Shown here piece by piece: positions 602-27,282 of a stretch of DNA of 64,000 bases. The DNA is from an uncultured Solirubrobacterales bacterium (GTDB lineage Bacteria > Actinomycetota > Thermoleophilia > Solirubrobacterales > 70-9): contig CAVUGL010000004.1 of assembly GCA_963740995.1 (NCBI GenBank), forward strand, positions 297,306-361,305. The letters run 5' to 3'. A program made the position numbers and the translations under genes. The first letter of the stretch is position 1. Each line of letters opens with the position of its first letter. The notes under the pieces are model-generated. The model was not told the origin of the DNA, searched no databases, and worked only from the letters and a program-made list of their open reading frames with translations.

Positions 602-743
602 CTGCCCGATCCTATGCGTGGTTCCGGGAAATTGGCTAGTGGATTGGTTGGCCGTAGGCGAAGCCCGAACCGCGTGGTGGATGTAGTGCGAAGTAGGACG
701 TAGCACTTCTCATTGGCCCAAGATCCACTAGGGTCCTTGACGA

Positions 744-3148: not shown

Positions 3149-3185
3149 GTGAGAGCGTGGGGTCCATCGAGGAACGAGGTCCCAG

Positions 3186-6503: not shown

Positions 6504-6509
6504 CGCCCG

Positions 6510-7136
6510 ATGGCGACGCTCGCGGCCTGGATGCTGGCCGGCTTCGCCGTCCTGACCCTCGCGGTGCGGGTGATGATCCAGCTGATCCGCACGGGCCGAA
6601 CCGGCCTGGTCGGCTTCCGCCGCGGGGCAGGGCCCGTCGACTGGCTGAGCGGGATCCTTTTCGTCGGCGGGATGGCCATGAGCGTGGTGTCCCTGGTCCT
6701 GGTCCTGCAGGACTCGTTGGAACCAATCGACGCACTGGACACGGACGCCGTCCACGTCGTCGGCATCGTCCTGGCGGCGAGCGGCGGCCTCACCGTGTTC
6801 GCAGCTCAGCTGGGCATGGGGGCGTCCTGGCGCATCGGGGTGAGTGACGACCAGGACACGGCCCTGGTCACGAGGGGCTGGTTCTCGATCGTTCGCAACC
6901 CGATCTACACGGCGATGATCGTCGGCTGGACCGGGTTTGCGCTGATAGTCCCGACGTGGCTGGCGTTTGCGGCCGTCCTGGTGATCGCCGTGGGCCTCGA
7001 GCTGCAGGTCCGGGCCGTGGAGGAGCCGTATCTGGTCCGCACACACGGCGACGGGTACCGCGTCTACGCCTCACGGGTAGGCCGCTTCGTCCCGGGCGTC
7101 GGGCGATTCAGCCCTCCAGCAAGCCCATCGCGTTGA
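6510..7136 (+). CDS. isoprenylcysteine carboxyl methyltransferase (ICMT/PEMT-like) family membrane protein
   Basis: 208 aa with multiple TM segments and the motif WFSIVRNPIYTAMIVGWTGFALI. Confidence 0.7.
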   Translation: MATLAAWMLAGFAVLTLAVRVMIQLIRTGRTGLVGFRRGAGPVDWLSGILFVGGMAMSVVSLVLVLQDSLEPIDALDTDAVHVVGIVLAASGGLTVFAAQLGMGASWRIGVSDDQDTALVTRGWFSIVRNPIYTAMIVGWTGFALIVPTWLAFAAVLVIAVGLELQVRAVEEPYLVRTHGDGYRVYASRVGRFVPGVGRFSPPASPSR

Positions 7137-12858: not shown

Positions 12859-13911
12859 ATGTCCAAGACGCTCGTCACCGGCGGGACGGGCTTTGTCGGT
12901 CTCCATCTGGTCAAGGAGCTCGCTCGCAGGGGCGACGACCTGAGGCTGCTGGTCCGCAAGGAGAGCAACACGGAGCCGCTCGAGGAAATCGAGTGGGAGC
13001 GCGCCGTCGGCGATGTCACCGACCGCAAGGCGGTCCGCAAGGCGATGAAGGGCGTCGAGCGGGTCTTCCACGTCGCAGGTACCACCTCGATGCGAAGCCG
13101 GGACCGCGGCCGCGTCTTCGAGGTCAACGTCGAGGGGACGCGCAACGTGATGGAGGAGGCGTTGCGCGCCGGCGTCGTCCGCGCCGTGCTCACCTCGAGC
13201 TCGAGCGCAGTCGGCGCGGCGCGCCCGGGCGAGACCATCGACGAGGACCACCCGTTCACGGTGGGCCGTCTCGGGATCGCCTACATCAACTCCAAGCACG
13301 AGGCCGAGCTGGTCTCGATGCGCGTAGCCGCCAAGGGGCTGCCGGTCGTGATCGTGAACCCGTCGTTCGTCCTCGGCCCCGAGGATCCGAATCCGAGCGG
13401 CACCTCAAACGCGCTGGTGCGACGGCTCCTGCTGCGCCGCATCCCCGGCTACTTGGATGGAGCCATCAACATCGTGGACGTTCGCGACGTCGCCAGGGGC
13501 CACGTCCTCGCCGACGAGCGCGGGGAGGAGGGTGAGCGCTACCTGCTCACCGGCAGGAACTTCACCCAGCAGCGGCTGTTCGCCGATCTGAGCCGGATCG
13601 CGGGCGTGCCGCCCCCGCCGGTGCGGATCCAGGGGCGGCTCGCTGTGGCGGGCGTCGAGGCGATGGAGCTGATCGGTTGGCGCGTGCCGACCTCCGCCGA
13701 CGAGGTGCGATCCGGAAGCCAGTGGTTCACCTACCGCAACGACAAGGCGCGAAAGAAGCTCGGCTGGGAGCCGCGGCCGCACGAGGAGACCCTCGAGGAC
13801 ACCGTCAACTGGCAGCTCGAGGAGCTCGGCGAACGCACCGAGGGGCACCGTCTCACGGACCTCGCGCTGCGCACCACCGGCGGCGTCCTGCGTCATATTC
13901 CCTTCATCTAG
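12859..13911 (+). CDS. NAD-dependent epimerase/dehydratase (dihydroflavonol-reductase/HpnA-like SDR)
   Basis: The ATG at 12859 gives MSKTLVTGGTGFVGLHLVKEL. The track ORF start at 12763 is an over-extension. Confidence 0.85.
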   Translation: MSKTLVTGGTGFVGLHLVKELARRGDDLRLLVRKESNTEPLEEIEWERAVGDVTDRKAVRKAMKGVERVFHVAGTTSMRSRDRGRVFEVNVEGTRNVMEEALRAGVVRAVLTSSSSAVGAARPGETIDEDHPFTVGRLGIAYINSKHEAELVSMRVAAKGLPVVIVNPSFVLGPEDPNPSGTSNALVRRLLLRRIPGYLDGAINIVDVRDVARGHVLADERGEEGERYLLTGRNFTQQRLFADLSRIAGVPPPPVRIQGRLAVAGVEAMELIGWRVPTSADEVRSGSQWFTYRNDKARKKLGWEPRPHEETLEDTVNWQLEELGERTEGHRLTDLALRTTGGVLRHIPFI

Positions 13912-13959
13912 CTATCCCCGCATTCCAATGCGGTTTGCGGCCGTTTTGCTAACCGATTG

Positions 13960-15068
13960 CTAACGGGCGAGTTCGGCGGCGAGCGTTTCGGCGGCGACCT
14001 CGTCCGACTGCGGAAGCAGATGGGCATACGTCGAGAGCACCGTCTTCGGGTCGTCTCCGAGCCGTGCGGCCACGATGTGTACGGGAACGCCGGCGGTGAG
14101 TGCGAGGGTGGCCGCGGTGTGCCGCAGGATGTGAAGTGTTCCGCTCGCTATTCCGACCGCCTTGCGGTGTTTGCCGAATAAATCGGTGAGCCGCATCGGG
14201 TGGATCGCGCCGCCGAGCTCGTCCGCGAAAACCAGGTCACGATCCGCGTAGGCGTCCCCGGCGAAGTCACGCTCGAGCAGCTGAGCATCACGATGTTGGC
14301 GAAGTGCCGCAACCGTCTCGCCGTCCAGCGCGATCGTCCGCCGTGAGCGCGCCGACTTCGGCGGTCCGAAGCTTGCGCCGCCGCGGGTGGGGATGAGCTG
14401 TTGCTCGACCGAGAGCCGCGCGCCGTCGAGGTCGAGAGTGCGCCACGTCAGTCCGGCGAGTTCCCCCCTGCGCATTCCGCTTGTCGCCGCCAGTCGCCAG
14501 AGCGCGAAGAGGCGATCGCCTGCGACGTGTTCAAGGAACCGACGGAGCTCGCCAGCCGTCCAGGCTTCGACCTTTGAGACGCTCCGGCTCGTGGGTCCGC
14601 AAGGTCGGCGGGGTTGCGCGTCAGCTTCCCCCACCGCACCGCATCGCGGAGGGCACGGTGCAGGACGGCATGGGTGCCGCGGCGCGTCGACGTCGAGAGT
14701 CCTGCATGCTCGAGCTCCGCGTAGAGCCCGTTCAGATGTGCCGGCGAGAGCGACTGGAGCCGCACGCGGCCGAGCGACGGGTTAATCCGCAGCCTGATGA
14801 CCTGTTGGTACTGCTGGATGCTCAGCGGTCGCAGGGTTCCCTCGACCGCCGGAAGCCACGCGGCCAGGTACTCAGACACCGTCTCCTTCGAAGGCTGCGC
14901 ATAGGAGCCGTCGCCGAGACGGCGGAGCTGGTCGGCGAGGAACGCCTCAGCCTCGCGCCTGGTGGTGAAGCCGCCCTTGGAACGCTGGCGCCGCCGTCCG
15001 CCCTCGTCGTGTCCCTCGTCGTAGACGACAGTCCAACTCGACCCCCGCTTTCTGACGTGACCGCGCAT
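13960..15068 (-). pseudogene. tyrosine recombinase (phage-type integrase), frameshifted
   Basis: The N-terminal ORF 14448..15110 reads MRGHVRKRGSSWTVVYDEG...NPADLADP. The C-terminal ORF 13960..14634 reads EAWTAGELRRFLEH...HILRHTAATLAL...LSTYAHLLP, carrying R, HxxR and Y. They are in different frames, and the junction maps to the TTT run at 14573..14575. Confidence 0.85.
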
Positions 15069-15493
15069 CAGTCGGCCCGCTCCGGCGGTGTCTCGGTGGC
15101 CTGGTCCCATGCGTCGGCCACCCGCTCATCGAATTCCTGCTTTGGAACCTCAGAGAGGTAGAAGCGCGCGTTCTGGTTGAAGAACGGCCGCTCGCCGCGA
15201 ATCCACGCGCGCATCTCGAGAGGACTGGCTTCGAAGCTGCCGAGCGTCAGAGGTTCATCTCCGTCTGGATGGGCGAGCAGATGAACTGGCGCGACGTCGA
15301 GTGCCAGCGCGTACCGCAGAAACTCCGAGAGTGAGAGACCGCGCTGCCCGAGTTCGACCTTCGCCACGGCGGCGCGGTCGATCTTGGTGCCGCCGATCAA
15401 GTTGAGCTCCCTCGCGAGGTCCTGCTGAGTCCAGCCGTGGCGCTTGCGTAGTTCGCGGATGCGCTCGCGGGCCGTCTGTTCAGGTGTCTTCAA
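15068..15493 (-). CDS. XRE-family helix-turn-helix regulator (repressor-like)
   Basis: 141 aa with RIRELRKRHGWTQQDLARELNLIGGTKIDRAAVAKVELGQRGLSLSEF. TTG start. Its stop overlaps the integrase ATG (ATGA). Confidence 0.8.
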   Translation of the reverse strand: MKTPEQTARERIRELRKRHGWTQQDLARELNLIGGTKIDRAAVAKVELGQRGLSLSEFLRYALALDVAPVHLLAHPDGDEPLTLGSFEASPLEMRAWIRGERPFFNQNARFYLSEVPKQEFDERVADAWDQATETPPERAD

Positions 15494-15572
15494 CTCAATT
15501 CCTTAGTACCAATATCGCACAAAAGTGTACCAGATCATCATATGTATGTGCGGAATGCTTATCATTGTTCGC
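15494..15572. promoter_or_regulatory. AT-rich divergent promoter/operator region (xre versus xis)
   Basis: This is the lowest-GC stretch of the left island end. A GTACCA direct repeat sits at 15506..15511 and 15527..15532, 21 bp apart. Confidence 0.4.
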
Positions 15573-15787
15573 GTGAGCGATTCAAGAACAGCATCGAGTG
15601 AAAACCGCACGGACACCCTCCTCACCGTGAGCGACGTGGCCGGGTGGCTCGGGATCGCCGAGGGCACCCTGCGCTACTGGCGTCACGTCCACCGCGGGCC
15701 CCGCTCACTCTCGGTTGGCGGCGCGGTGCGCTACGGGTGCGCGACATCGAGCAGTGGCTGGAGCGATCCGCCGAGCCTGGGGAATGA
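15573..15787 (+). pseudogene. excisionase/AlpA-like HTH gene, frameshifted
   Basis: LLTVSDVAGWLGIAEGTLRYWRHVHRGPRSLSVGGAVRY is followed, after a 1-nt shift near 15733, by RVRDIEQWLERSAEPGE-stop. The stop overlaps the next ATG (ATGA). Confidence 0.6.
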
Positions 15788-16011
15788 ACGAGCGCGCCGT
15801 CTACACGATCGAGGAAGCGGCACAGATGCTCGGCGTCGGCCGCTCGACCGCTTACGACGCGGCTCGCCGTGGCGAGCTTCCGGTCGTCCGGCTCGGCCGG
15901 CGCTTGTTGGTCCCGAGGGCTCGGCTGAATGAACTTCTTGGCATCAATAAAGCCAATGGAAGCGGCACAGGGGCCGATTCCCCGAAAGAGAACGGGGGCG
16001 AAGTCGGGTAG
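15784..16011 (+). CDS. excisionase-family helix-turn-helix DNA-binding protein
   Basis: 75 aa: MNERAVYTIEEAAQMLGVGRSTAYDAARRGELPVVRLGRRLLVPRARLNELL. Confidence 0.75.
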   Translation: MNERAVYTIEEAAQMLGVGRSTAYDAARRGELPVVRLGRRLLVPRARLNELLGINKANGSGTGADSPKENGGEVG

Positions 16012-16304
16012 GCGCTCACGCCGGGTAGCCCCGGCCAGTAACTCGCCCCTCGGCCGCACAAGCCCCGCGGGAGCTCTGGACCAGCTGGGGTGTTGAACCG
16101 GCCAGGTTTGACGATGAGGCTCCGCGGGCCCGCCAAGGATTCGGATCGGTCACCAGCACGGAAGGACGCGATACCCGGAGCGGACCGTATGGGAGCGGAG
16201 ATGCGAGCGGACTAGTCCACCGCTCAGCGGCCTAGGCGAGATCAGACATTGGAAACCACCCGGTAAGGGCAGCTACCCCTGCCGCCTGAAGGAAAGGGAA
16301 GAAC

Positions 16305-16577
16305 ATGAGTTACAAGAGCAGAGAGAAGAAACGCCGCGCCAAGCTAGCGATCGCCGGCAGTAAGGGCCGAGCCGACCGCTGGTACATCACACCGGTTCGC
16401 CGCCACTGCTGCTGCAACCGCTGCGGCGTCTCCCTGCGGGCTGGGCAGCACACCATGGTCTTCCGGCACTCGCCGAAGGAGATCCGTTGCCAGGGCTGCG
16501 CGGACTCCGAGCGGATTTCCTATCGGCCCTCGAGGCGCTGGGATGCTCAGAAGGCCCGGGAGCTCAAGGCGGCATGA
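16305..16577 (+). CDS. hypothetical basic protein with 4-Cys zinc-ribbon
   Basis: 90 aa. SD ggaaagggaag upstream, a Lys/Arg-rich N-terminus, and CNRC...CQGC. Confidence 0.45.
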   Translation: MSYKSREKKRRAKLAIAGSKGRADRWYITPVRRHCCCNRCGVSLRAGQHTMVFRHSPKEIRCQGCADSERISYRPSRRWDAQKARELKAA

Positions 16578-16600
16578 CTAGCCGAGTACCGAACCTTGGC

Positions 16601-17002
16601 TTAATCAGACAGCCCGGCGGCTTTGAGGGCCTCCTCGCGCGACTCGTACATGCGGTAGCGCACGACCTTCGACTCCCTCAGGTCGTAGACGGAAAAGAAA
16701 TCGCGCTCCATGTGAATCCCGCTCTGCCGGCCTATGCCACGTTGGCGAAAGACGACCACCACCGAATCCCCTGCATCGAGGTACTCGCTGAATTCAACTT
16801 CGAAGTCCCTCCAGGTTCCAAGCCAGTCGCGGAAGAACTGCTCCACCCCCGCGTGGCCGTGAAGAACGCCTGCCGAGGGCCAGTTGCTCGCGGAGGTGTC
16901 CCACACGACGTCCGGATCGAAGTACTCACGCCACTTGTCGCGGTCGCCTTTCTCAAAGAGTTGGCTGAACTCCTTGACGATCTCAACGTTCTCCTCCGAC
17001 AT
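16601..17002 (-). CDS. SnoaL-like/NTF2-fold protein, cassette A (only intact copy)
   Basis: 133 aa: MSEENVEIVKEFSQLFEKGD...VVRYRMYESREEALKAAGLSD. Confidence 0.75.
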   Translation of the reverse strand: MSEENVEIVKEFSQLFEKGDRDKWREYFDPDVVWDTSASNWPSAGVLHGHAGVEQFFRDWLGTWRDFEVEFSEYLDAGDSVVVVFRQRGIGRQSGIHMERDFFSVYDLRESKVVRYRMYESREEALKAAGLSD

Positions 17003-17005
17003 CGC

Positions 17006-17412
17006 CTACTCTCGCAGCTCGGCGGTTTTGAGGGCTTCGGCACGGGTCCAGAAGACTCGGCGTCTGGTAATCAGGCCGTCGGCGAACAGGACGATCTGCC
17101 AGGTGCGGTATTCAAACGGCACGCCGCTGCCCCTACGGCGTGCTGTGAGAACCACGGCGATGAAGACCCGGTCATCACCCAAGTCCGTTATCTGCTCGAT
17201 CTCGATGTGGACGCCCTCCTCCGCGTTTTCCCACATCAGCTCGATCCACTCTCGCACCTCTGCGCGCCCGCGGTAAAGCTCACCAATCCCGGGGACACTA
17301 CCAGGGCCTCCCATACGACATCAGGGCTGAGGAAGGCCAGGAAGCCGTCGAGGTCGCTGCGGTTGAGAGCGTCAATGGCCTTCCGTGCCAGCGCTACGTT
17401 CTCCTCCGACAT
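17006..17412 (-). pseudogene. SnoaL-like cassette B, one frameshift
   Basis: The ATG at 17412 gives MSEENVALARKAIDALNRSDLDGFLAFLSPDVVWE. The frame then changes near 17310 into GPGSVPGIGELYRGRAEVREWIE...RAEALKTAELRE (track ORF 17006..17314). Confidence 0.7.
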
Positions 17413-17415
17413 CGC

Positions 17416-17695
17416 CTATTCCCGAAGGCCGGCGGCTTCATTGGCCCGCGCCCACTCGATGATGTTCTGCGAGCTGTCGATGATCGTGCCGCTGTCGAGC
17501 ACAAGCGTGGGCACCTTGTAGTTGCCGGTCAGGCGCTTGACCTCACGCCGCCCTGGAAAGAGCGGGTCGGTTCGGTAGCAGCCACCGGTCTTGCTACCTC
17601 GGGCTGGTAGCCCGCCGTGACCAAGGCTTCGTGGGCTTTACCGCAAGGGTGTCCCCGGTGGGACGGAACGTCCCCCAGCACACGTAGAGCCTCAT
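17416..17695 (-). pseudogene. glutaredoxin-like / GST-N-terminal-domain cassette, at least 2 frameshifts
   Basis: Three frames read in turn: MRLYVCWGTF, then PSHRGHPCGKAHEALVTAGYQPEV, then PGRREVKRLTGNYKVPTLVLDSGTIIDSSQNIIEWARANEAAGLRE-stop. Same family as 22025..22321. Confidence 0.6.
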
Positions 17696-18148
17696 CGCCT
17701 ACGCAGTATCCCCTCCCGGGGGGGTACCCGGTCAATCGTGAAACGCGAAAGCACGCGACCGCCGTACCACCAACGCGCGAAAAAAACTCCAAAAAACACG
17801 AAAGGAAAAACGATGAGTGACATACCGAACCGCTACCGGACAACTGGCGCCAGCCGAGCCAGGTCTCATAGAGAGCGAGTGGTAGAAGCATCCGCAGCGC
17901 GCCGAGTTGGATGCCCGCAAAGCTGAGCGCGATGTGAGGGATACCCAACCTGGAGCTTGGAGGCGGAACGAGCCCGAGGGCTGGACGGGATGTGTTCTAC
18001 TCCGTAGACCCGCTTGATGGGCGCGAGGACATCGCGTATGCGGCTGACGAATAAGTGGCTCAGGGACGAGCTGGCCAAGGCAGAGATGCAGGCCGGCGAG
18101 TCTTCAGCCGATTAGAGATTTGGGATACCGCTGCTCTGTCCAAAGCGG

Positions 18149-18529
18149 CTATGCCGACTCCCGGCGGCTTCAGGTGTCACTCCGATTCTGAAACAACTGC
18201 GTTCGGAGGATATCGCCGTCTTTGACGGTCGAGAGCGACCACGTCCGGGTCTCCACTGGTACGTCGCTTCCCGCCGTCCAGCCCCGGTATGAACTCTACC
18301 AAGACTTGGTGGCCGCCCGCGTCATGAACTCGACCGGCTCCTGAGCAAACGGTCGATGGAGTTCACCCAGGCAGATATCCACTCCCGCGCCGCCCCACCT
18401 CGAAGGTGCCGGCTCGGGCATCTCCTGCGAGTATAGCTCGATTTCGCCGGAAGATCAGCGATTGTGCTGAAGTCGCTCTGGGTGAACTGCTCGAAAGCGG
18501 CCCGCAAAGGTCTACTGCTTTTCCGACAT
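18149..18529 (-). pseudogene. SnoaL-like cassette F, heavily degraded
   Basis: ATG 18529 gives MSEKQ-TAG. Other frames carry LRAAFEQFTQSDFSTIADL and TWSLSTVKDGDILRTQLFQNRSD..EAAG. The boundaries are approximate. Confidence 0.5.
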
Positions 18530-18532
18530 CGC

Positions 18533-18926
18533 CTACTCCGACAGCTACGCGGCTTCGAGGGCCTCGGTACGGGTTCCGCATATGCCTGTAGACGATCTTG
18601 CCTTGACGGTACCTGACGGCGCAGAACCAAGGCTGCTCGACGGGGACGCCGCCTGTTCGACCCGTCTGGTGTTCTTGCCGGACACCAGGAGCGTCGTCGA
18701 ATCTTCGATTCGGGAGTAGTCGGCGTGGACCTCGGCATAGATGTCGTTCAGCTGCGAGATATATTCAATTGCCCCCGCTCGTCTCCGATAGACGTCACCT
18801 TCAACCACGCCCGCCAGCTAGGGCTCGATCCTCGCCTCCGGGCCGAACAGTTCCTGCGACTGCGGGTCGCCCCCCGGTTGAAGGCTGCGACGACTCGCCG
18901 GAGGTCTCGACGTTCTCCTCCGACAT
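18533..18926 (-). pseudogene. SnoaL-like cassette D, multiple frameshifts and in-frame TAGs
   Basis: Fragments spread over three frames: MSEENVE / DLRRVVAAFNRG / ARIEP-TAG-LAGVVEGDVYRRRAGAIEYISQL / GVPVEQPWFCAVRYRQGKIVYRHM / RTEALEAA-TAG-LSE-TAG. Confidence 0.6.
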
Positions 18927-18929
18927 CGC

Positions 18930-19326
18930 CTACTCCGACAGCCCGGCGCTTCGAGGGCCTGCTGCCAGCGGCGAATAGACATTCTCACTCGCCACCCCGT
19001 TCTCGATCGTCACTAGGTTCGCGTATTCCAACTTCACCTCGACTCCCTCCCGTCCTAGCCCATGGAACCGGAGCAGGGCGAGTATCCGATCGTCGCCGAT
19101 CGGCTCGATGCGCTCGACTTCGATCAGGACGGTTTCCCTAGGCTCTCGGAACGTGTTCCAGAACTGCCGGACCCCTCTCGCCCCCGATACACGGCATCGG
19201 TATCGGGTAAAGCTGCGCTGTGCGCCACTCGTAGTCGGGGGTAATGTGGTCCAGCACCCAGTCGAGATCGCCGCGATTCCACGCCTCGTAGGTCTGCCGC
19301 ACCAGCTCCACGATCTCCTCCGACAT
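18930..19326 (-). pseudogene. SnoaL-like cassette E, at least 2 frameshifts
   Basis: MSEEIVELVRQTYEAWNRGDLDWVLDHITPDYEW comes from track ORF 19138..19368. YRGREGVRQFWNTFREP...GVEVKLEYANLVTIENG comes from track ORF 18930..19364. The tail ALEAPG/AGLSE is shifted again. Confidence 0.65.
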
Positions 19327-19490
19327 CGCCCACGCAGTATCTCGCGCGTACCGCTGCTTTCCATGCATAGCGTATAGCCGCTTCCCGTATAGCAGTACTC
19401 CTGACTGGGGCTTACTGCTCAGTCGTCGTAGCCGTTACGGGTCTCGGGACCGAGAGAGATCTCGCCGAGAGGAGGCTCAGGTAGCCCGGT

Positions 19491-20613
19491 TCAGGGTGTC
19501 CACTTCGCGGCCAGTGTGCCGCCGGAACCGTAAAAGTTGTACCCGCAGACGGCCATGCAGTAGAGCCGGCTCGGACAGGAGACGCCGGTTAAGTACGGGT
19601 TCGTTTTACCTCCTCAGAACAGATCGACAATAGCTGCCATATCGCTCCGTCGTAGCGTTCTGCGATCAGACCGGGGCTGCCCGATACATCCCCGATGCCC
19701 ACGGCATGACACACGCTTCGTCCCGGGCAGCTAATGCCGTGGAGCTGGGCGAACGCGTAGCGGAATGAGGATTGGGTGTCGGCATGACCGACCAGGTCGA
19801 GCCACTGCGACGTGCGCCAAGCGTTGTCGTCACCCGCGTGACTGGCGTCGGATAGCTGATGGAGCTTCCGACCGCGACACACACGGGTGCGTCCGGACAG
19901 GACACGCCGTTGTATGACGCGCTCTCCGCCCCGCGGGCTCGGGTAAGCAGATCCACGAGTTGACGCGGCCGACCCAGCGCTGAGAGAGAGGCAATCACGC
20001 CGCCGGTGTCTGAGTAGCCGTCAGCTGTGCTGGGTGTTAAGGGGCAGAAACGCCTGCCAAGGAACTGGACTGGGACCCGGGAGGGCTCGGTGTTGATTGG
20101 ATGTGCCAGCCGGTGCCTAACAGCGCTAGACGAGGGCTGGCCCCGCGGTGTTGGGGATCTTCCCGACTGCCGTGCTCGCCAGATGCCCAGAGCTGAGACG
20201 GCATCGAGCTCCTGCCCCCTGCGCTCGACTGGTCGACCTACTCGTCCCGTCCCAGTGCTCGATCAGCGGCCTGGTGTCTGAGCTGCCGTCCGCGATGCAG
20301 TCGTGCGGCGGTGGGCGGAGAAACCATTCAGCGAGTTGAAGGTCGAGCCCGGAGGATTGGGAGTCGTCACGATCTGCCAGCTTGTGCCATTCCAGTGCTC
20401 GGCCACGGTCGCCGCGGTCCCGCCGGGAGCGTTGATCGTCGCCTGGCCGACGGCCATGCCGATTCGCCGACGTGCTGTCGACCGCGCTCTGGTTCGTGGA
20501 GCTTGCGCCAGCGACGTTCGGTGTTGGCGAGACGCTCCAGGCGGCCGAGGCGGGAAGGCGTGAGCGCGCGCCGCGGTCGCTAGCTGGATCAGGCGATCCG
20601 ATCGAAGGGACAT
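19491..20613 (-). pseudogene. secreted repeat protein (about 45-50 aa units W-x-G-T-x-W...P-x-P...GVSC...C-x-AVG), many frameshifts
   Basis: A signal-like N-terminus MSLRSDRLIQLATAARAHA starts at 20613. Repeat units such as TVAEHWNGTSWQIVTTPNPPGSTFNSLNG, PLIEHWDGTS, YNGVSCPDAPVCVAVG and GVSCPSRLYCMAV are scattered over all three minus frames. Confidence 0.5.
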
Positions 20614-20836
20614 CTGCTCCGCTGTGGCTACGCCTGCGGTCTGGGCGGAAGTAGCGGTCGCCTACCAAAGCTGCTGCTTTCCATGCAAAGCAGCGGTTTC
20701 CTATCCTCTGCTGCATATCCTTTTCCTAGGTCTGAGAGCCGCCTAGAGCTCTCGCTAAGGAGCTGGCGCTAGATAAATCCGATCGACCGTCAAGATCACA
20801 GGGCGATACCGCCCGCGACGGAACAAGGAGTGGTCT

Positions 20837-21310
20837 ATGACAGAGCTGGAACTTCGTGCAGAGATCGAGGCGCTTGAGGCTGCGGCACACGGCCGAAGCT
20901 TCACCTCGGAGGAGCGCGCCGAGTGGAACCGCCTCAACGCGGACTTCGATGAGGTCAGAAGTGGAGCGCCCGCGTCCTCAGATCGGGCTCTATCCTCTCG
21001 CCCGCGAGGAGGGCGCGACCTTCACGGTTCCGGCTCTCCGTTGGGGCCGCGACTCACACGCCGAGCCCCGCGAGCAGGGACTGCGGACGATCGAGCGGCT
21101 CGGCCGCGACGAGAGTCTCTCGCCTGAGGCCGGCGACCGGCTCGAGGAGCTGATGCGCAGCGATCGAAGCGGCGTGGATTCCCGCTACCTCTGGTAGTCT
21201 CGGTTAGTCCTACGCGACGGCATTCGGCAAGCTCGTGACGCGCCCGGACACGGCACTAATGAGTTCGACGACGCCGAAGCCGCCGCGATTCGTGCTGTCG
21301 GGGACGGTTG
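20837..21310 (+). pseudogene. HK97-family phage major capsid protein, N-terminal fragment, frameshifted and truncated
   Basis: MTELELRAEIEALEAAAHGRSFTSEERAEWNRLNADFDE, then PREQGLRTIERLGRDESLSPEAGDRLEELMRSD, then AYATAFGKLV and GHGTNEFDDAEAAAIRAV in shifted frames. The coding signal fades after about 21310. Confidence 0.5.
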
Positions 21311-22016
21311 CCTCTAATCTCGCCGTAGATGTGTGAGCCATACCTCTGAGTTGATCCTGTACGATTGGACGTATGACTGAGTTCATCTTGAGTCATAAGC
21401 TTATAAGTTGATCGCGTGTCCGTCTCGATATGTACTCTCTACCACTGGCCGGAGGACACGTCGTAGAATTGGGACCTAGTCGTATAGGCGATCTATACTT
21501 ATACCTGTCACGACGCCGTCATGAGTATCTCCCCTATCTCTTCATATCTCTACCTGATCATTTATGACTCCGCCCCCTATGCCCCTCATACTTCTTTCTG
21601 TATCCTTATAACACCATCTTTCCTCTCTATCTTCTCATCTCTTATCTCTGCGACTACGCTTCCCCTCCTATCATATCACTTATAGAATAAACATTACCTC
21701 TCTGCTCCTCTATCTCATTTTTCTCCATTCCACAACCAAGCATCTATAAACTACTGTTCCCTCCATATTATCTAATGCCTCAACTTCACCTCATCCTTAC
21801 CCACACCAACCCCTACAAACCCAAACCATACACCCGAACAACCCAAATATCTCACCCTAACCCAATATCAACAACCCACCCAAAATAAATAACAAAATCT
21901 ATTACTGCCAAACCAACCCAAAACTAACTAACAAATAACTAATAAATTAAAAAATAACCAAAAAAAAAAATATAAAAAAAAAAAAAAATAAAAATAAAAA
22001 AAAAAAAATAAATCCC
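21300..22016. other. non-coding tract with progressive loss of G, then T, then C, ending in poly(A)
   Basis: Read directly from the sequence. It has no ORF, no periodic repeat and no hairpin. It ends 11 nt before the ATG at 22025. Confidence 0.9.
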
Positions 22017-22024
22017 TTCATCTG

Positions 22025-22321
22025 ATGACCGAGCCCCGGCGCGTCCTCTACCGCTGTCCGACCCGGACCAACATGCTCTGCCCCTGCGGCGCCGTCGCGC
22101 GCAGGCTCAACAAGCTGGGGCTGGAGTATCGAACCGAGCGCGTGCCCTACCGGCGCGCCAACCGCCCGGAGATCGTCGAGCTGACCGGCATGAAGTACGT
22201 CCCGGTGCTGGTCGACGGGGACGAGGTCGTCAACGACTCCCATCGGATCCGCCAGTACCTGGCCTGGAAGTACGGCGAGGAGGAGCAGCGACCCGAGGCC
22301 GGTTCCGCGGCGGCTAGCTGA
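22025..22321 (+). CDS. glutaredoxin-like / GST N-terminal domain protein
   Basis: 98 aa: VLYRCPTRTNMLCPCGAVARRLNKLGLEYRTERVP...EIVELTGMKYVPVLVDGDEVVNDSHRIRQYL. No SD is visible upstream, where there is poly-A. Confidence 0.65.
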   Translation: MTEPRRVLYRCPTRTNMLCPCGAVARRLNKLGLEYRTERVPYRRANRPEIVELTGMKYVPVLVDGDEVVNDSHRIRQYLAWKYGEEEQRPEAGSAAAS

Positions 22322-22760
22322 CGCCCGCGTCCCGCAGCGCTTCCTCTGGATCCCAGTAAGCCCGTTGGTAGGCGAGCCGACCGTCGCGCACCCGGCAGAC
22401 GTAGGCCCACAGATGCTCGAAGGGAACGTCACCGCCCTTGGAGACGCCGCTTAGACGGACCATCGCTACCACCTCGCCACCCGCGTCGTGAAGCTCCTCC
22501 ACCTTCATCTCGACCGCTCCGAACACCTCCAGGTAGCCATGCCATGCGCGGATGACCGCCTCACGGCCGCGGTAGGTCGCCGATCCAGGCCACTTCGGGT
22601 CCTCGACGTATTCGATCTCCGGATGCCACCAACGCTCGGCGGCCGCCTCATTCATCTCCACAGGCGTCGAGCTGAGCATCTCACCCCACATCTGACGGAG
22701 GATTTCGAGGTCTTCCGTGCCCACGGCTGGCCAGTATCCAAGATCAGCCACAGGGGTCAC
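22314..22760 (-). CDS. SnoaL-like/NTF2-fold protein
   Basis: 148 aa: YRGREAVIRAWHGYLEVFGAVEMKVEELHDAGGEVVAMVRLSG...RDGRLAYQRAYWDPEEALRDAGVS. Confidence 0.7.
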   Translation of the reverse strand: MTPVADLGYWPAVGTEDLEILRQMWGEMLSSTPVEMNEAAAERWWHPEIEYVEDPKWPGSATYRGREAVIRAWHGYLEVFGAVEMKVEELHDAGGEVVAMVRLSGVSKGGDVPFEHLWAYVCRVRDGRLAYQRAYWDPEEALRDAGVS

Positions 22761-22768
22761 TACAATTC

Positions 22769-23149
22769 ATGCCGATGAGCGAGACGTCTCAACCAATCAC
22801 GCTGACCGACAAGGCCGCGGGCAAGATCAAGGAGCTGCTCTCAGACCAGGAGAACGGGTCCGAGCAGGCTCTGCGCGTCGCGGTCCGCGGCGGTGGCTGC
22901 TCCGGCTTCCAGTACGCACTCGCCTTCGACGCTCCCAAGGAGGACGACCACCGCTTCGAGAATCAGGGCGTGGCGGTCGTCGTCGACAAGACGAGCATGC
23001 AGTTCGTCTTCGGTTCCGAGGTCGACTGGGTCGATGGGCTGCAGGGCGCCGGCTTCTCGGTCAACAATCCGAACGTCGTCGCGGCCTGTGGCTGCGGCTC
23101 TTCCTTCCAGGTCAAGGAAGACGCGGCCGAAGAGGCCGCCACGGTCTAG
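22769..23149 (+). CDS. A-type iron-sulfur cluster carrier (HesB/IscA/ErpA family)
   Basis: 126 aa with LRVAVRGGGCSGFQY and CGCGSSF. Confidence 0.9.
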   Translation: MPMSETSQPITLTDKAAGKIKELLSDQENGSEQALRVAVRGGGCSGFQYALAFDAPKEDDHRFENQGVAVVVDKTSMQFVFGSEVDWVDGLQGAGFSVNNPNVVAACGCGSSFQVKEDAAEEAATV

Positions 23150-23167
23150 CCCGATCCGCCTTAGCGA

Positions 23168-23572
23168 CTAGCGCTCGATCTGGATCGGCGGGCTCTGCTG
23201 CGGGTCGTCCGCCTTGAGCTCCTGCTTGGCCGACATCGTCGGCCGCTCCGGCCGCTCGACCCCGAGCACGCCGGCCAGTTCGCCCGACTCGTCCATCTCG
23301 GCGACTATGTCCGCGCCGCCGAGGAGCTCGCCGTTGACGTAGAGCTGCGGGAAGGTCTGCCAGTCGGAGATCTCGGCCGTCACCTCGCGCAGCGGCTGGA
23401 GCGCCGGCAGCACGTCGACCGCGCCGTACTCGACGCCGTAGCTCTCGAGCACCTGGACGACCCGCATCGAGAAGCCGCACTGGGGCTGCTCCGGAGTGCC
23501 CTTCATGAAGAGCAGGACCGGGTTCTCCCGGATCAGCTCCTCGACCTTGTCCTTGAGAGTGGGTTCAGTCAT
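23168..23572 (-). CDS. grxD: Grx4-family monothiol glutaredoxin
   Basis: 134 aa: VLLFMKGTPEQPQCGFSMRVVQVL (CGFS active site) and WQTFPQLYVNGELLGGADI. Confidence 0.9.
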   Translation of the reverse strand: MTEPTLKDKVEELIRENPVLLFMKGTPEQPQCGFSMRVVQVLESYGVEYGAVDVLPALQPLREVTAEISDWQTFPQLYVNGELLGGADIVAEMDESGELAGVLGVERPERPTMSAKQELKADDPQQSPPIQIER

Positions 23573-23616
23573 CTCCGACCACGATACAGACCGGATCGAG
23601 CGGCTACGCGGAGCCG

Positions 23617-23853
23617 CTACTCCGGCACCGATGTCTTGATGGAGAGAGCGTGAATCGAGCCGTCGTCAAAGCGAGTCTGCACGGCCCTCTTGACGAGCTT
23701 GTGCTGCTCGATCCGCGAGAGGCCCTCGAACTGCGGCGCCGCCACGGTGGCGCGCAGATGGTCCTGGGTGCCGGTTTCGTCCACCACCTCGACCTTGGCG
23801 CCGGGCAGCGATGCCTCGATCATCAGGCGGACTTCGTCCATGGAGATCGCCAT
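23617..23853 (-). CDS. BolA-family protein
   Basis: 78 aa: VEVVDETGTQDHLRATVAAPQFEGLSRIEQHKLV...IHALSIKT. Confidence 0.85.
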   Translation of the reverse strand: MAISMDEVRLMIEASLPGAKVEVVDETGTQDHLRATVAAPQFEGLSRIEQHKLVKRAVQTRFDDGSIHALSIKTSVPE

Positions 23854-23893
23854 CGCCGTGATTCTAGGAAGCTGGGGGGCCCGCCCTCACCTG

Positions 23894-24451
23894 CTAGGGC
23901 TCGAGGAGATCGGCGAGCGCGCGCTCCAGCACGTCTGCGCGGCTGCGCTCGCCGTGGTCGGCCGTGATGAATGGGCTCCCGATGAACAGCGAGAAGGCGA
24001 GCAGGCTGCGGGCCTCGGCCTCGTCCTCGTCGTGACAGAGGGCGCCGAACAGCGAGCGCATGTACTCCATGCGCCGGTTGTCGACGCGCCTCACCCGCCT
24101 GGCGACAGCCTCGTCGCGTCTTGCCCAGTCACGGATCGCCAGCTCCACCCTGATCAGCTTGCGGCCGCCGGAGGTGGCGAGCGCGAACAGGCGCCGCAGC
24201 CTGGCCCGGGCGTCTGCGCCCTCCTCCTCGACACGTTCGATCACCTCGTCGACCATCGTCCGCTCCCAGGTGTCGAGCATCTCCCGGAGCAGCTCGCTGC
24301 GGCCCGCGAAGTGCCCGTAGAAGCCCCCCTTGGTGACGCCGAGCGACCGCGCCAGCGGCTCGATCCGGACTGCATCCGGGCCGCCGGCGGCCAGGGCCCG
24401 CAGTCCCTCTTCGATCCAGGTGTCGCGGGGTGTCAGGGTCGGTGCGGGCAT
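23894..24451 (-). CDS. TetR/AcrR-family transcriptional regulator
   Basis: 185 aa: GPDAVRIEPLARSLGVTKGGFYGHFAGRSELL. Confidence 0.88.
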   Translation of the reverse strand: MPAPTLTPRDTWIEEGLRALAAGGPDAVRIEPLARSLGVTKGGFYGHFAGRSELLREMLDTWERTMVDEVIERVEEEGADARARLRRLFALATSGGRKLIRVELAIRDWARRDEAVARRVRRVDNRRMEYMRSLFGALCHDEDEAEARSLLAFSLFIGSPFITADHGERSRADVLERALADLLEP

Positions 24452-24466
24452 TGACGCGGCTCCATC

Positions 24467-24482
24467 TATACGCTAGCGTATA
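24467..24482. promoter_or_regulatory. perfect 16-bp palindrome TATACGCTAGCGTATA (operator candidate)
   Basis: Lies in the 44-bp gap between the divergent TetR (start 24451) and the DUF2867 gene (start 24496). Confidence 0.6.
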
Positions 24483-24495
24483 CATCATCAACCGG

Positions 24496-25116
24496 ATGGA
24501 TCGAGGTCCACGAATGAGGCTCCCCAACAGCGCGCACACCTCTCGGCCCTGGCGTATTCACGATGTGGCCCCCGACTTTCGAGTGGAGGACGTGTGGGCG
24601 TTGCCCACTCCGGGCGGCCCCGACGACTTCCATCTGCTGGTCGAGAGATTCGCTGAGACGAACACCGCCGAGAGCTCCTCCGCCGCCGTCCGCTTCCTGT
24701 TCGCGCTCCGCTGGAAGCTCGGGGAGCTGTTCGGGTGGGACGCCCCGGAGGACGGCATCGACTCCCGGGTGCCGACCCTGCGGGACCGCCTGCCTGAGGA
24801 TCTGCGGGATGCGGACCCAGGTCCGAGGTCAACGGCGCTCCCTTTCAGCCCGCTCTACCTACTCCACGACGAGTACGCGGCCGAGATCGCCAACCGCACC
24901 ATGCACGGGGTGGCCCACCTCGGCTGGGTCCCGGACGGCTCCGGCGGCTACCGCGGTCAGATGGCCGTGCTGGTGAAGCCCAACGGCCTCAAGGGTCGGG
25001 CGTACATGGCCGCGATCAAGCCGTTCCGGCACCTGCTGGTCTACCCGCGGATGCTGCGGGACATCGAGCGGCGATGGCGGACGGCGCAGGGCGGCCCGAC
25101 GCCCGCCCACGCGTAG
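24496..25116 (+). CDS. DUF2867-like protein
   Basis: MDRGPRMRLPNSAHTSRPWRIHDVAPDFRVEDVWALPTPGGPDDF. The start was chosen downstream of the divergent TetR start; 24514 is also possible. Confidence 0.6.
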   Translation: MDRGPRMRLPNSAHTSRPWRIHDVAPDFRVEDVWALPTPGGPDDFHLLVERFAETNTAESSSAAVRFLFALRWKLGELFGWDAPEDGIDSRVPTLRDRLPEDLRDADPGPRSTALPFSPLYLLHDEYAAEIANRTMHGVAHLGWVPDGSGGYRGQMAVLVKPNGLKGRAYMAAIKPFRHLLVYPRMLRDIERRWRTAQGGPTPAHA

Positions 25117-25126
25117 CCGGCCGCGG

Positions 25127-26532
25127 CTAGGCGGCCGTCTTGGACGCCCCGGAGGCCTCGACCAGCTCGTCGACCTTGCAGAGCTTGACCCGCGGGCGGC
25201 CGTGCGGCTTGCCTGCTTCGACCTCGGCGGCGTCGATCGCCTGCCAGCCCTCGAAGGTGACGTGGTCGGGCCTGCGCTCGGAGAGCAGTGCCTCGATCGA
25301 GCCGCGGTCGCCGGCCAGCTCGGCCTCGGGGACCTTGCCGGCTTCCAAATCGGCGAAGAGGTTGTCGACGGTCTCCAGAGCGTCCTTCTTGTTGGTGCCG
25401 ATCACGCCGGAGGGGCCGCGCTTGATCCAGCCGACCGCGTACAGCCCCAGGGACCTGCTCGCCGCCGTCGGTGACGCGGCCGCCCTCGTTGGAGATCGTC
25501 CCGGCGCGCTCGTCGAAGGGAACGTCCCTCGATCGGGATCCCCTTGTAGCCGATCGAGCGCAGTACCAGGCCGCATTCGATGGTCTCCCGCTCGCCGGTG
25601 TCGACAGCTCGGATCCGTCCGCCGTCGTCACGCTGCAGCTCGTTTCTGCCCACCACGATCCTCTCCACTTTGCCGTCGCCCTGAATTTCGACGGGGGAGC
25701 GCAGGAAGCGCAGCACGATCCTCTGCGGCTTGCCCTCAGGGTCGCGCTGGGAGAAGCCGGTGAAGATCTCGACGTTCCGGCGGTTGGTCGGGTCGGCGTC
25801 GTCGGAGTCGAGCCACTCACGGCTCAGCTCGTCGAGCTCCATCTCGTCCGCGTCGATGTCGATGTCGGCGTTCGACATCTCGCCGAGCTCTCGGACCTCA
25901 GGGTTGGTGAACGCGGCCTGAGCCGGCCCGCGGCGACCGAGCACCAGGATCTCCTTGACGCTGCTCCCCGAGAAAGCCTCGATGGCGTGGTCTGCGGTGT
26001 CGGTCTCGCCGAGCTCATCAGGCGTCAGGGCGAGCATCCGAGCCACGTCGGCGGCGACGTTGCCGTTACCGATCACCACCACACGCTCAGAGGAGAGGTC
26101 GAACTCCCGGTCGGCGAAGTCGGGGTGGGCGTTGTACCAGTTGACGAACTCGGTGGCCGGATGGCTGCCGACCAGATCCTCGCCCGGAATGCCGAGCTGG
26201 CGGTCGGTGGCGGTTCCGTAGGCGAAGACGAGCGCGTGATAGCGCTCCCTGAGCTCGTCGACGGAGACGTCCTTGCCGACCTCGACGTTGCCGAAGAAGC
26301 GAAACTCGGGGCGGGCGGCCGTCTTCTCGTAGACGCGGATCACCGACTTGATCTTGGGATGGTCGGGCGCGACGCCGAAGCGGACGAGGCCGTAGGGCGT
26401 CGGCAACCGGTCGAACATGTCGACCTCCGCGTGTGTGCCCTCGTGCTTGAGCACGTGCTCGGCCGTGTAGAAGCCGGCCGGGCCCGAGCCGACGATGGCC
26501 ACGCGCAGCGGTTGTTCGGGGGTTCCGATCAC
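25127..26532 (-). pseudogene. fprA: ferredoxin-NADP+ reductase (FprA/adrenodoxin-reductase type), two frameshifts
   Basis: The N-terminal ORF 25402..26532 reads LRVAIVGSGPAGFYTAEH...LRSIGYKGIPIEG. The middle segment VPFDERAGTISNEGGRVTDGGEQVPG is in a third frame. The C-terminal ORF 25127..25576 reads LYAVGWIKRGPSGVIGTNKKDA. Confidence 0.8.
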
Positions 26533-26559
26533 AGCGAGCCGGAAAGGGTAGTGACTGGG

Positions 26560-27282
26560 TTAGGCGGGAGTGGGGGTCACCGCGGTGGCCGCGGTGCCGT
26601 CGAGCGCATCGAGTGCGCGCCCCAGCGACATCGCCACGCAGGTGAAGATCGGCGTGTCGCGGAGGGTGTAAGAGCTCGACTCCGTGCCGCGCAGTTCCTG
26701 CACGAGGTCGAGGAACTCAGCGGGCTCGTCGCCCTCGAATGAGACGACGAACTCCTGGTCGTCAAGGCCAAAGGAATAGGCGGTGTTGATCGAGATCTCC
26801 GGATAGCGGCGACCGACCTCAATGTGGTCGGTCATGATCCGCTTTCTCTCATCGAGGGGCAGGCCGTACCACTCCCGCTTCTTGTCGAACGGATAGACGA
26901 AGAGGTACTTGCGCTCCGAAATGCAGATCTCGGGGCGGGACTCGGATTCGGAGTAGGGCGATGGCTTGGTCATCGCCAGATAGGAATAGGGCGTGGAGGC
27001 CCAGCGGGCGAGGCCGCTCTGCCCGAGTACGACGTGGAAGGTGTGGATGTCCTCGAGGATCGGGCTCTGGCCGAGCAGCAGCAGGTCGGTGTCACCCCGG
27101 GTGCCGACGGTCGAATACGCTCGCAGCGAGCGGTCCTCCGCGAAGTCCTCGCAAGCCGCCAGGAACTCGGCCTTGTCCTGGGCCCGCTCGGAGGCACTGC
27201 GCCGGCGCCAGGCGGGGTCGAGCTTGAAGAACGTGAACTTGACGAACGTCCGGTCGGCCACCAAGCGAAGGTTAGTGGCCAC
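26560..27282 (-). CDS. hemQ: chlorite-dismutase-family coproheme decarboxylase (HemQ/ChdC)
   Basis: 240 aa: FTFFKLDPAWRR...YLFVYPFDKKREWYGLPLDERKRIMTDHIEVGRRY. GTG start. Confidence 0.85.
   Translation of the reverse strand: MATNLRLVADRTFVKFTFFKLDPAWRRRSASERAQDKAEFLAACEDFAEDRSLRAYSTVGTRGDTDLLLLGQSPILEDIHTFHVVLGQSGLARWASTPYSYLAMTKPSPYSESESRPEICISERKYLFVYPFDKKREWYGLPLDERKRIMTDHIEVGRRYPEISINTAYSFGLDDQEFVVSFEGDEPAEFLDLVQELRGTESSSYTLRDTPIFTCVAMSLGRALDALDGTAATAVTPTPA

What the first reader, a model, noticed from the sequence alone, without database searches (positions are those of the whole stretch)
21300..22016. Stepwise collapse of the nucleotide alphabet (ACGT, then ACT, then AC, then A) ending in poly(A) 11 nt before an intact gene
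From about 21300 the + strand stops resembling the rest of the window. My hand count of G per 60-nt line from 21181 to 22020 is 17,19,17,15,16,10,5,3,2,3,1,0,1,0. After G disappears the text is C/T/A-rich (tcctctctatcttctcatctcttatctc). After about 21780 T thins out (ccacaccaacccctacaaacccaaacc). After about 21950 C is gone, and 21949..22013 is A with a few T. The grx-like ATG follows at 22025 with no SD. There is no ORF, no unit repeat and no stem-loop. The tract begins inside a truncated capsid gene. I know no bacterial mutational or mobile-element process that yields an ordered base-by-base extinction. A retro-element poly(A) tail would explain only the last 65 nt, and no RT gene is present. 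The most parsimonious reading is a non-biological origin: assembly or gap-fill artefact, chimeric low-quality read end, or in-silico generated sequence. If real, it would be about 450 nt of essentially G-free DNA in a GC-rich genome. Its G/T-rich complement carries several G-runs (gggtgggttgttgatattgggttagggtgag).
Basis: seen in the sequence. Interest (0 to 1): 0.7.

Follow-up and report, generated by a model that had tools for sequence, protein, structure and literature searches.

The report
Corrupted end of an integrated element
The strange stretch that fades from normal DNA into a run of A's is a progressively garbled copy of an ordinary, gene-bearing sequence at the end of an integrated mobile element, most likely a nanopore sequencing or assembly error in a public soil genome and not biology.

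Summary
G falls from about 14 per 40 nt to 0 between 21300 and 21780, T then thins, C vanishes after 21959, and an A/T run reaches 22012. Nothing else in the window resembles it.

The tract is not foreign DNA or an added tail. It is the right end of an 8.1-kb integrase-bearing element (13910-22012), flanked by an 11-bp direct repeat. The element sits between an epimerase gene and a GST_N gene that are adjacent in relatives.

An independent assembly (L008) carries the same element at the same site. There the homologous ~800 nt is ordinary GC-rich DNA encoding a conserved 74-aa protein. The window's tract aligns to it column by column as far as 21940. G is replaced first by T, then C, then A or deleted. 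C is then lost, and A is always kept.

Outgroups show the changes are derived in the window (98 changes versus 5). Directional errors start abruptly near 17800 and stop exactly at the right repeat.

An ORF that exists only because of these changes is on record on the 507-kb source contig, a nanopore-only Flye+Medaka MAG. So the corruption is in the deposit.

Best reading: technical corruption. The raw reads were not available to confirm it.

The parts
13899..13909 (+). Left copy of the 11-bp direct repeat TCCCTTCATCT (att core or target duplication). It is the last 11 nt of the epimerase coding sequence.
   Evidence: Found exactly twice in the window, 0.02 expected by chance. Relatives L001-L004 have a single copy, followed directly by the GST_N start.
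13910..22012 (.). 8.1-kb inserted integrative element or prophage remnant. It is absent from close relatives and present at the same site in L008.
   Evidence: L001-L004 align up to 13909 and resume at 22014, with 10 nt of the relative matched at both ends. L008rc 1-7949 aligns to 13910-21784.
13960..15110 (-). Tyrosine integrase, split over two overlapping frames (13960-14634 and 14448-15110).
   Evidence: Pfam Phage_integrase, Phage_int_SAM_3 and Arm-DNA-bind_4.
15068..15493 (-). Xre-type HTH regulator.
   Evidence: Pfam HTH_3 and HTH_31.
15715..16011 (+). Excisionase-type HTH_17 protein.
   Evidence: Pfam HTH_17, E 2.5e-14.
17800..21250 (+). Zone 1 of the corruption. It differs from L008 by about 7%. 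The changes are directional: A>T 58 against T>A 4, C>T 26, C>A 23, and 90 one-base deletions against 10 insertions. They break every gene in the zone.
   Evidence: Polarised by outgroups. The 82-aa ORF 20949-21194, created by these changes, is on record on the source contig.
20837..21306 (+). N-terminal fragment of an HK97-type major capsid gene. The truncation at 21306 is real and shared with L008. In the window the fragment is also frameshifted.
   Evidence: 79% aa identity to P0121. DNA homology to L005, L006 and L007 ends at 21306. Cluster mate P0219 (449 aa) matches Pfam Phage_capsid.
21307..21780 (+). Zone 2 of the tract, where G is lost. G retention falls from 67% to 22%, replaced mainly by T and then also C. 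C and T are kept at 88-100%.
   Evidence: Alignment z = 27 for 21500-21780. 55 window-unique changes against 2 L008-unique, with JGI outgroup L081.
21416..21637 (+). Remains of a conserved 74-aa gene. It is intact in L008 as P0203, which belongs to a 173-member cluster. In the window it is destroyed.
21780..21940 (+). Zone 3, an A/C-rich stretch. G is kept at 3% and otherwise becomes A or C or is deleted. T starts to be lost. A is kept at 98%.
   Evidence: Alignment z = 12.9.
21941..22012 (+). Zone 4, the A run with interspersed T. About 73 nt stand in place of about 123 nt of ordinary L008 sequence. Homology can no longer be demonstrated here.
   Evidence: Alignment z = 1.8.
22013..22023 (+). 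Right copy of the 11-bp direct repeat. Identity to L008 returns to about 98% from this point.
22025..22321 (+). Intact GST_N (glutaredoxin-like) gene. Before the insertion it was translationally coupled to the epimerase gene through an overlapping TGATGA.

Best explanation
The tract is a technical corruption of a real sequence.

Shown:
- Window 13910-22012 is an 8.1-kb tyrosine-integrase element inserted between two genes that are normally adjacent.
- Its right 4.2 kb differs from an independent copy of the same element by a one-sided, strand-specific, position-dependent loss of information.
- That loss ends in an A run and stops exactly at the element boundary.
- The true sequence of the tract is ordinary GC-rich DNA that carries a conserved 74-aa gene.

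Inferred:
- The source is a nanopore-only soil MAG (R10.4.1, Guppy, metaFlye, one round of Medaka).
- The insertion is polymorphic in these populations. Inside it, only reads from insertion-bearing cells can support the consensus.
- From about 17800 rightwards the support was probably one or very few poor reads, which gives about 7% raw-type errors.
- The signal or decoding of that support then degraded over the last ~750 nt. Called bases collapsed onto fewer and fewer letters, and identical neighbouring calls merged into deletions.
- At 22013 reads from all cells, including empty-site cells, cover the flank again, so the consensus recovers at once.
For: 1. Relatives have an empty site, and an 11-bp repeat flanks the insertion.
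2. L008, from another sample, has the same element at the same site. Its tract region is normal and the window aligns to it column by column (z = 27 and 12.9).
3. With outgroups, the counts are 55, 28 and 15 window-unique changes against 2, 3 and 0 L008-unique changes.
4. The spectrum is unlike divergence. There are almost no reciprocal changes.
 - The replacement for G shifts with position, from T to C to A.
 - C is hit at 5-12%, then spared (retention 93-98%), then lost at 93%.
 - A retention is 98-100% at the end.
5. Deletions behave like merged identical calls.
 - In 21300-21780 all 14 deletions lie next to a T in the window, against 36 of 96 substitutions (P = 5e-6).
 - New bases match a neighbour less often than permuted ones do.
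6. Onset is abrupt near 17800 and the end is abrupt at the repeat. Flanks differ from L008 by only 1-2%.
7. The 82-aa ORF created by the changes is on the 507,433-bp public contig that also carries the window's flanking proteins. That rules out tampering with the window, at least up to 21197.
8. Relatives are Microflora Danica long-read MAGs. Their pipeline is nanopore-only Flye plus Medaka.
9. Low-complexity junk reads and read glitches are recognised features of long reads (PMC6966772).
Against: - No read data were available, so local coverage is inferred, not seen.
- The study used a Flye read-coverage cutoff of 8 for large data sets. That sits badly with single-read support, unless local coverage inside the insertion fell below the contig average.
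- The zone-1 spectrum (A>T, C>T, C>A) is not the usual nanopore error profile of transitions and homopolymer indels. Deletions are not enriched in homopolymers.
- I found no second example in 1.4 Mb of related MAG loci. I know of no published description of exactly this failure mode.
- The presence of the tract itself (21300-22012) on the source contig is inferred, not shown. The inference rests on the 82-aa ORF upstream and on the 98-aa GST_N gene call.
Confidence: 0.8

Rival explanations
1. The tract is real DNA. It would be an end-anchored, strand-specific hypermutation of the attR-proximal 4.2 kb of the element in vivo. One possible route is repeated error-prone repair synthesis primed from a nick at attR. 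Another is damage to a resected single strand, with mutation load rising towards the break.
For: - The gradient is one-sided and stops exactly at the att repeat.
- The changes are strand-coordinated. The zone-1 spectrum (A>T, C>T, C>A, with G and T spared) resembles, from my own knowledge, the bypass outcomes reported for 1-methyladenine and 3-methylcytosine lesions in single-stranded DNA.
- The sequence is in a deposited assembly built with a coverage cutoff.
Against: - No known process changes its product with position (G to T, then C, then A).
- No known process spares C in the middle of a rising dose, reaches about 100% loss of G and C, adds up to 40% deletions, and keeps every A.
- Deletions sit where a merged identical call is expected.
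- The flanks differ from L008 by only 1-2%, so 33% divergence over the tract would need a catastrophic local event.
- The region includes a conserved gene that is destroyed.
Confidence: 0.07
2. The corruption was made by the polishing or consensus software, not by a read. For example, the Medaka recurrent network could drift on out-of-distribution input such as very low or single-strand depth inside the insertion. The Flye draft would then be normal.
For: - Deterioration is progressive and recovery is instantaneous at the point where depth must change.
- The final outputs are essentially 'A' or 'deletion'.
- The pipeline used one round of Medaka 1.8.0.
Against: - Medaka labels pileup columns independently of run length. 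The link between deletions and identical neighbours therefore fits a basecaller better.
- No other example turned up in 1.4 Mb of MAG loci, many from the same project.
- I know of no report of this behaviour.
Confidence: 0.1
3. A retroelement-type insertion made by target-primed reverse transcription. The A run would be a poly(A) tail and the 11-bp repeat a target-site duplication.
For: An A-rich run abuts a short direct repeat at one end of an insertion.
Against: - L008 has the same insertion and the same repeat with no A run. Ordinary sequence occupies that place.
- The element carries a tyrosine integrase, an Xre regulator and an excisionase at the other end.
- No reverse transcriptase domain appears among the Pfam hits of the genes called on the L008 copy.
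Confidence: 0.01
4. The sequence was altered in silico after retrieval, as a planted control in this window.
For: - The collapse looks designed.
- A 40-mer from the tract is absent from three public collections.
Against: - The 82-aa ORF that depends on the zone-1 changes is exactly on record on the public 507,433-bp contig.
- The corruption ends at a biological boundary that a blind edit would be unlikely to hit.
Confidence: 0.02

Closest known systems
Low-quality or low-complexity nanopore read segments ('junk' and 'glitches') surviving in a long-read assembly where coverage is thin
   Same: - The assembly is nanopore-only.
- Errors are confined to a strain-polymorphic insertion.
- Deletions far outnumber insertions.
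- The sequence ends in low complexity.
- Recovery is abrupt where all reads cover again.
   Different: - The tract still tracks the true sequence for about 640 nt while losing one letter after another.
- The substitution spectrum is not the usual transition and homopolymer profile.
- I know of no described case with this ordered collapse.
Integrated prophage remnant or integrative element with a tyrosine integrase and short att repeats
   Same: - Integrase, Xre regulator and excisionase lie at one end.
- An 11-bp direct repeat flanks the element.
- Relatives have an empty site.
- It carries a truncated capsid gene and cargo (SnoaL-like) genes.
   Different: This describes the carrier of the tract, not the tract. 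The integrase is split by a frameshift, and only two copies were seen.
Poly(A) tail plus target-site duplication of non-LTR retrotransposons and processed pseudogenes
   Same: An A-rich run lies directly next to a short direct repeat at the end of an insertion.
   Different: - The A run replaces ordinary sequence that is present in the sister copy.
- There is no reverse transcriptase.
- An integrase-type module is present.
Strand-coordinated mutation clusters in damaged single-stranded DNA (APOBEC kataegis, or alkylation of resected ends)
   Same: The changes are one-stranded and clustered, with density rising towards a fixed end.
   Different: - Several base types are hit in turn.
- The product changes with position.
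- One base class is lost almost completely.
- There are many deletions, and the tract ends in a homopolymer-like run.

Membership tests
Sequencing or assembly artefact (corrupted consensus) | An independent assembly of the same locus shows a normal sequence. | tested here: met
   L008 (ERZ25039533 contig_72486) has ordinary GC-rich DNA with a conserved 74-aa ORF at the homologous place.
Sequencing or assembly artefact (corrupted consensus) | All differences are derived in the suspect sequence. | tested here: met
   Window-unique against L008-unique changes are 55:2, 28:3 and 15:0 with three outgroups.
Sequencing or assembly artefact (corrupted consensus) | The error pattern fits a decoder and not mutation, for example merging of identical calls. 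| tested here: met
   All 14 deletions in 21300-21780 lie next to the sink base T, against 36 of 96 substitutions (P = 5e-6). New bases avoid matching their neighbours. However, deletions are not enriched in homopolymers.
Sequencing or assembly artefact (corrupted consensus) | Low or one-sided read support across the region. | not testable with these tools
   Raw reads (ENA PRJEB58634) cannot be mapped here.
Tyrosine-integrase integrative element | An integrase gene near one end. | tested here: met
   Pfam Phage_integrase, SAM-like and arm-binding domains at 13960-15110, split over two frames.
Tyrosine-integrase integrative element | Direct repeats at both junctions and an empty site in relatives. 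| tested here: met
   TCCCTTCATCT at 13899 and 22013 only. L001-L004 have one copy and no insert.
Non-LTR retroelement insertion (TPRT) | A reverse transcriptase is encoded or implied. | tested here: not met
   No RT domain appears among the Pfam hits of the genes called on the L008 copy or among the ORFs scanned here. Not every small ORF was scanned.
Non-LTR retroelement insertion (TPRT) | The poly(A) is an added tail at the 3' junction. | tested here: not met
   The sister copy has about 123 nt of ordinary sequence where the window has the 73-nt A run.
Strand-coordinated hypermutation cluster | One lesion type with a constant substitution outcome and few indels. | tested here: not met
   Targets and products change along the tract, and there are 187 deleted bases.

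The most novel reading that the evidence does not exclude
The tract is real DNA. It would be a previously undescribed mutational erosion that starts at the attR junction of an integrated element and works inward along one strand. It would progressively remove G, then C, and leave an A/T run just upstream of the host gene that the insertion had uncoupled from its partner.
Probability: 0.07. Interest if true: 0.85.

Novelty: not a real feature. Interest (0 to 1): 0.12.

Why it matters
As biology it most likely does not matter. The true sequence is an ordinary element end.

It matters as a quality warning:
- A deposited long-read soil MAG seems to carry about 4.2 kb of corrupted consensus. That stretch manufactures pseudogenes, including a frameshifted capsid fragment, broken SnoaL-like genes and a lost 74-aa gene. 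It also creates a striking compositional anomaly.
- Protein products of the corrupted DNA have already entered public protein collections.
- The case shows that strain-polymorphic insertions are places where nanopore-only consensus can fail badly.

If the reads showed the tract to be real, it would point to an unknown, boundary-anchored hypermutation process.

Tried and rejected
- **Exact searches for the tract.** A tract 40-mer found nothing in GTDB representative genomes, IMG/VR or JGI metagenomes. The L008-type junction found nothing in JGI.
- **Phage DNA search.** A search of the phage collection with the whole insertion gave no match.
- **Hidden source contig.** The look-up of encoding contigs does not show the source contig. 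Look-ups of window-only proteins returned 'not on record' even when the protein is in the collection. Those four look-ups are therefore uninformative.
- **Search with the L008 383-aa protein.** I hoped to see the source's gene fragments. Full-length homologues filled the list.
- **Stop-codon planting.** I tested whether the zone-1 substitutions were planted stop codons. Only 26% fall in stop triplets, against 7% background. That is an enrichment driven by new TA dinucleotides, not a rule.
- **Bases borrowed from paralogues.** I tested whether substituted bases come from paralogous elements. The window-unique changes do not match the outgroups L005, L006 or L081.
- **Smoothing towards neighbours.** I tested whether new bases copy a neighbouring base. 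The opposite is seen.
- **Recurrence.** I scanned 1.4 Mb of related loci, many from the same project, for similar low-entropy tracts. None was found.
- **Simple alkylation or depurination models.** They fit zone 1 but fail in zones 2-4.
- **G-quadruplex or structural readings of the complement.** These are moot once the tract is seen to be a degraded copy.

Full report
**Observation.** The window is 67.5% G+C overall.
- From 21300 the + strand first drops to about 25% of each base.
- It then loses G. Counts per 40 nt run 14, 10, 9, 9, 11, 6, 3, 2, 3, 1, 1, 3, 0...
- T then thins after about 21780.
- C is lost next. The last C of the tract is at 21959.
- The tract ends in an A run with interspersed T at 21949-22012.
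- G in 21540-22013 is 15 against 163 expected, P about 7e-64.
- No other 100-nt window of the 64 kb has fewer than 17 G.

So the description is right. One detail needs correcting: T persists at about 15% to the end.

**Where the tract sits.** The gene after the tract (22025-22321) encodes a GST_N/glutaredoxin-like protein. It has more than a thousand homologues in Solirubrobacterales-type genomes.
- In the closest relatives this gene overlaps the stop of a 350-aa epimerase gene (TGATGA).
- Their DNA aligns to the window up to 13909 and resumes at 22014. Ten bases of the relative match at both ends.
- The 11-mer TCCCTTCATCT occurs exactly twice in the window, at 13899 and 22013, against 0.02 expected.
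- Window 13910-22012 is therefore an 8.1-kb insertion.
- At its left end it carries a tyrosine integrase (split over two frames), an Xre-type regulator and an HTH_17 excisionase. It then carries several SnoaL-like cargo genes. Near the right end it has the first ~155 codons of an HK97-type capsid gene.
- The missing SD of the GST_N gene follows from the lost translational coupling.

**What the tract really is.** An exact look-up of one cargo protein found a 13,989-bp contig from another sample (L008, ERZ25039533). It carries the same element at the same site.
- Window 13910-21784 aligns to L008 in one piece, and 22006-26860 aligns beyond it.
- In L008 the region homologous to the tract is ordinary GC-rich DNA of about 800 nt. 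It contains a 74-aa ORF that belongs to a 173-member protein cluster.
- The window's tract aligns to this sequence column by column. Alignment z-scores against shuffles are 27 for 21500-21780 and 12.9 for 21780-21940.
- The last 73 nt give z = 1.8. Homology there can no longer be shown. That stretch stands in place of about 123 nt in L008.
- Capsid homology to a third set of contigs ends at 21306 in both the window and L008. The capsid truncation is therefore real and older than the anomaly.

**The pattern of change.** All figures below are relative to L008.
- The left part of the element (13910-17800) and the right flank differ from L008 by 1-2%, with mixed change types.
- From about 17800 the difference jumps to about 7%. 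It then climbs to 18, 26, 33 and 38% in successive 200-nt bins up to 22012, and falls back to 1-3% from 22013.
- In 17800-21250 the changes are directional: A>T 58 against T>A 4, C>T 26, C>A 23, and 90 deleted bases against 10 inserted.
- In the tract, G retention falls 67% > 22% > 3% > 0%.
- The replacement for G shifts from T to C to A, or G is deleted.
- C retention is 88%, 98% and 93%, and then 7% in the last 73 nt.
- T is fully kept until 21780 and then half lost.
- A retention is 98-100% at the end.
- The tract is 706 nt against 797 nt in L008.

**Which copy changed.** Outgroups polarise the differences.

| Window region | Outgroup | Window-unique changes | L008-unique changes |
|---|---|---|---|
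| 21351-21655 | L081 (JGI contig) | 55 | 2 |
| 20700-21306 | L006 | 28 | 3 |
| 18905-19345 | L005 | 15 | 0 |

The window's copy is the derived one.

**Is the corruption in the public record?**
- The window's flanking proteins are exactly on record on one 507,433-bp contig held by NCBI and ENA.
- An 82-aa ORF (20949-21194) exists only because of a one-base deletion, several A>T changes and a C>T that creates its stop. It is exactly on record on that same contig.
- The L008 versions of the genes in this zone have no cluster mate from that contig.
- The corruption is therefore in the deposited assembly, at least up to 21197. It was not introduced into the window afterwards.
- Close relatives are Microflora Danica long-read MAGs.
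- That project used R10.4.1 flow cells, Guppy, metaFlye 2.9.2 and one round of Medaka, with no short-read polishing (PMC12313526).

**Interpretation.** A natural mutational process would have to do all of the following:
- act on one strand only;
- start abruptly 4.2 kb inside the element;
- change its product with position;
- spare C in the middle of a rising dose;
- remove essentially all G and then all C;
- keep every A;
- delete up to 40% of bases;
- stop within three bases of the att repeat;
- do all this in a lineage whose flanks differ from the sister copy by 1-2%.

I know of none.

The details fit a decoding failure better. In 21300-21780 all 14 deletions lie next to a T in the window, where T is the current sink base. 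Only 36 of 96 substitutions do so (P = 5e-6). New bases also match a neighbour less often than permuted ones do. This is what is expected if a miscall identical to its neighbour is merged into one call.

The sharp right boundary is explained if the insertion is polymorphic in the sample. It is polymorphic across samples: present in the window and L008, absent in L001-L004. The L008 contig itself ends exactly at the left junction. Reads from empty-site cells then polish the flanks right up to the repeat but cannot help inside the insertion. The abrupt onset near 17800 would mark the point where good supporting reads run out.

I therefore read the tract as technical corruption, confidence about 0.8. 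Whether the fault lies in a poor read, the basecaller or the polisher cannot be decided from the sequence.

**Weak points.**
- No reads could be inspected.
- The project's Flye coverage cutoff of 8 argues against single-read support, unless local depth was far below the contig mean.
- The A>T/C>T/C>A spectrum and the lack of homopolymer bias in deletions are not the textbook nanopore profile.
- No second example turned up in 1.4 Mb of related loci.
- These points keep a small probability (about 0.07) for a real, boundary-anchored hypermutation. That would be remarkable.

**Comparison with known things.**
- The carrier is an ordinary integrase-type element or prophage remnant.
- The A run next to a short repeat mimics a retrotransposon tail plus target duplication. 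The sister copy has ordinary sequence in its place, and no reverse transcriptase is present.
- Strand-coordinated damage clusters share the one-strandedness and the gradient, but not the spectrum or the indels.

**Verdict.** This is not a real genomic feature. Its interest is low, except as a caution about a deposited MAG and the protein records derived from it.

Noticed in passing
window 13899-22023: An 8.1-kb tyrosine-integrase element is inserted exactly at the overlap of the epimerase stop and the GST_N start. The element's first two bases (AG) give the epimerase a new TAG stop, so both host genes stay intact. The insertion is polymorphic: present in the window and L008, absent in L001-L004.
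   Followed up: yes
window 13960-15110 (-); L008 12115-13021: The integrase is split by a frameshift in the window. It is also fragmented, at different places, in L008. Either the element is decaying or both nanopore assemblies carry indel errors here.
   Followed up: partly
window 16977-17056, 17391-17466, 18508-18583, 18905-18980, 19301-19333: A conserved ~35-75-nt segment (TTCTCCTCCGACATCGCCTAC...) recurs at the 5' ends of the several SnoaL-like cargo genes. It also recurs in the unrelated loci L005, L006 and L081, which suggests a cassette-like family of small SnoaL genes.
   Followed up: no
window 23710-24900: This stretch differs from L008 by about 20% and does not align with L001 or L004, which have a methyltransferase and GDPD genes there. 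It is a variable spot next to the conserved BolA / glutaredoxin / Fe-S biogenesis genes.
   Followed up: no
L008 (ERZ25039533 contig_72486), contig end: The 13,989-bp contig ends exactly at the left junction of the insertion. That is expected for a minor-strain branch in a metaFlye graph, and it is indirect evidence that empty-site and occupied-site strains co-occur in these soils.
   Followed up: partly
L004 (ERZ25039462 contig_27424): Many genes in this relative's locus are fragmented compared with L001 (for example CN_hydrolase, DegV and GDPD are split). This suggests a generally indel-rich nanopore consensus in that assembly.
   Followed up: no
L005 and L006, 10001-11344: The related capsid gene is also broken there (248-aa plus 101-aa pieces), inside a different SnoaL-rich island whose integrase lies on the other side. 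Remnants of this capsid gene seem to be common cargo-island debris in this lineage.
   Followed up: no
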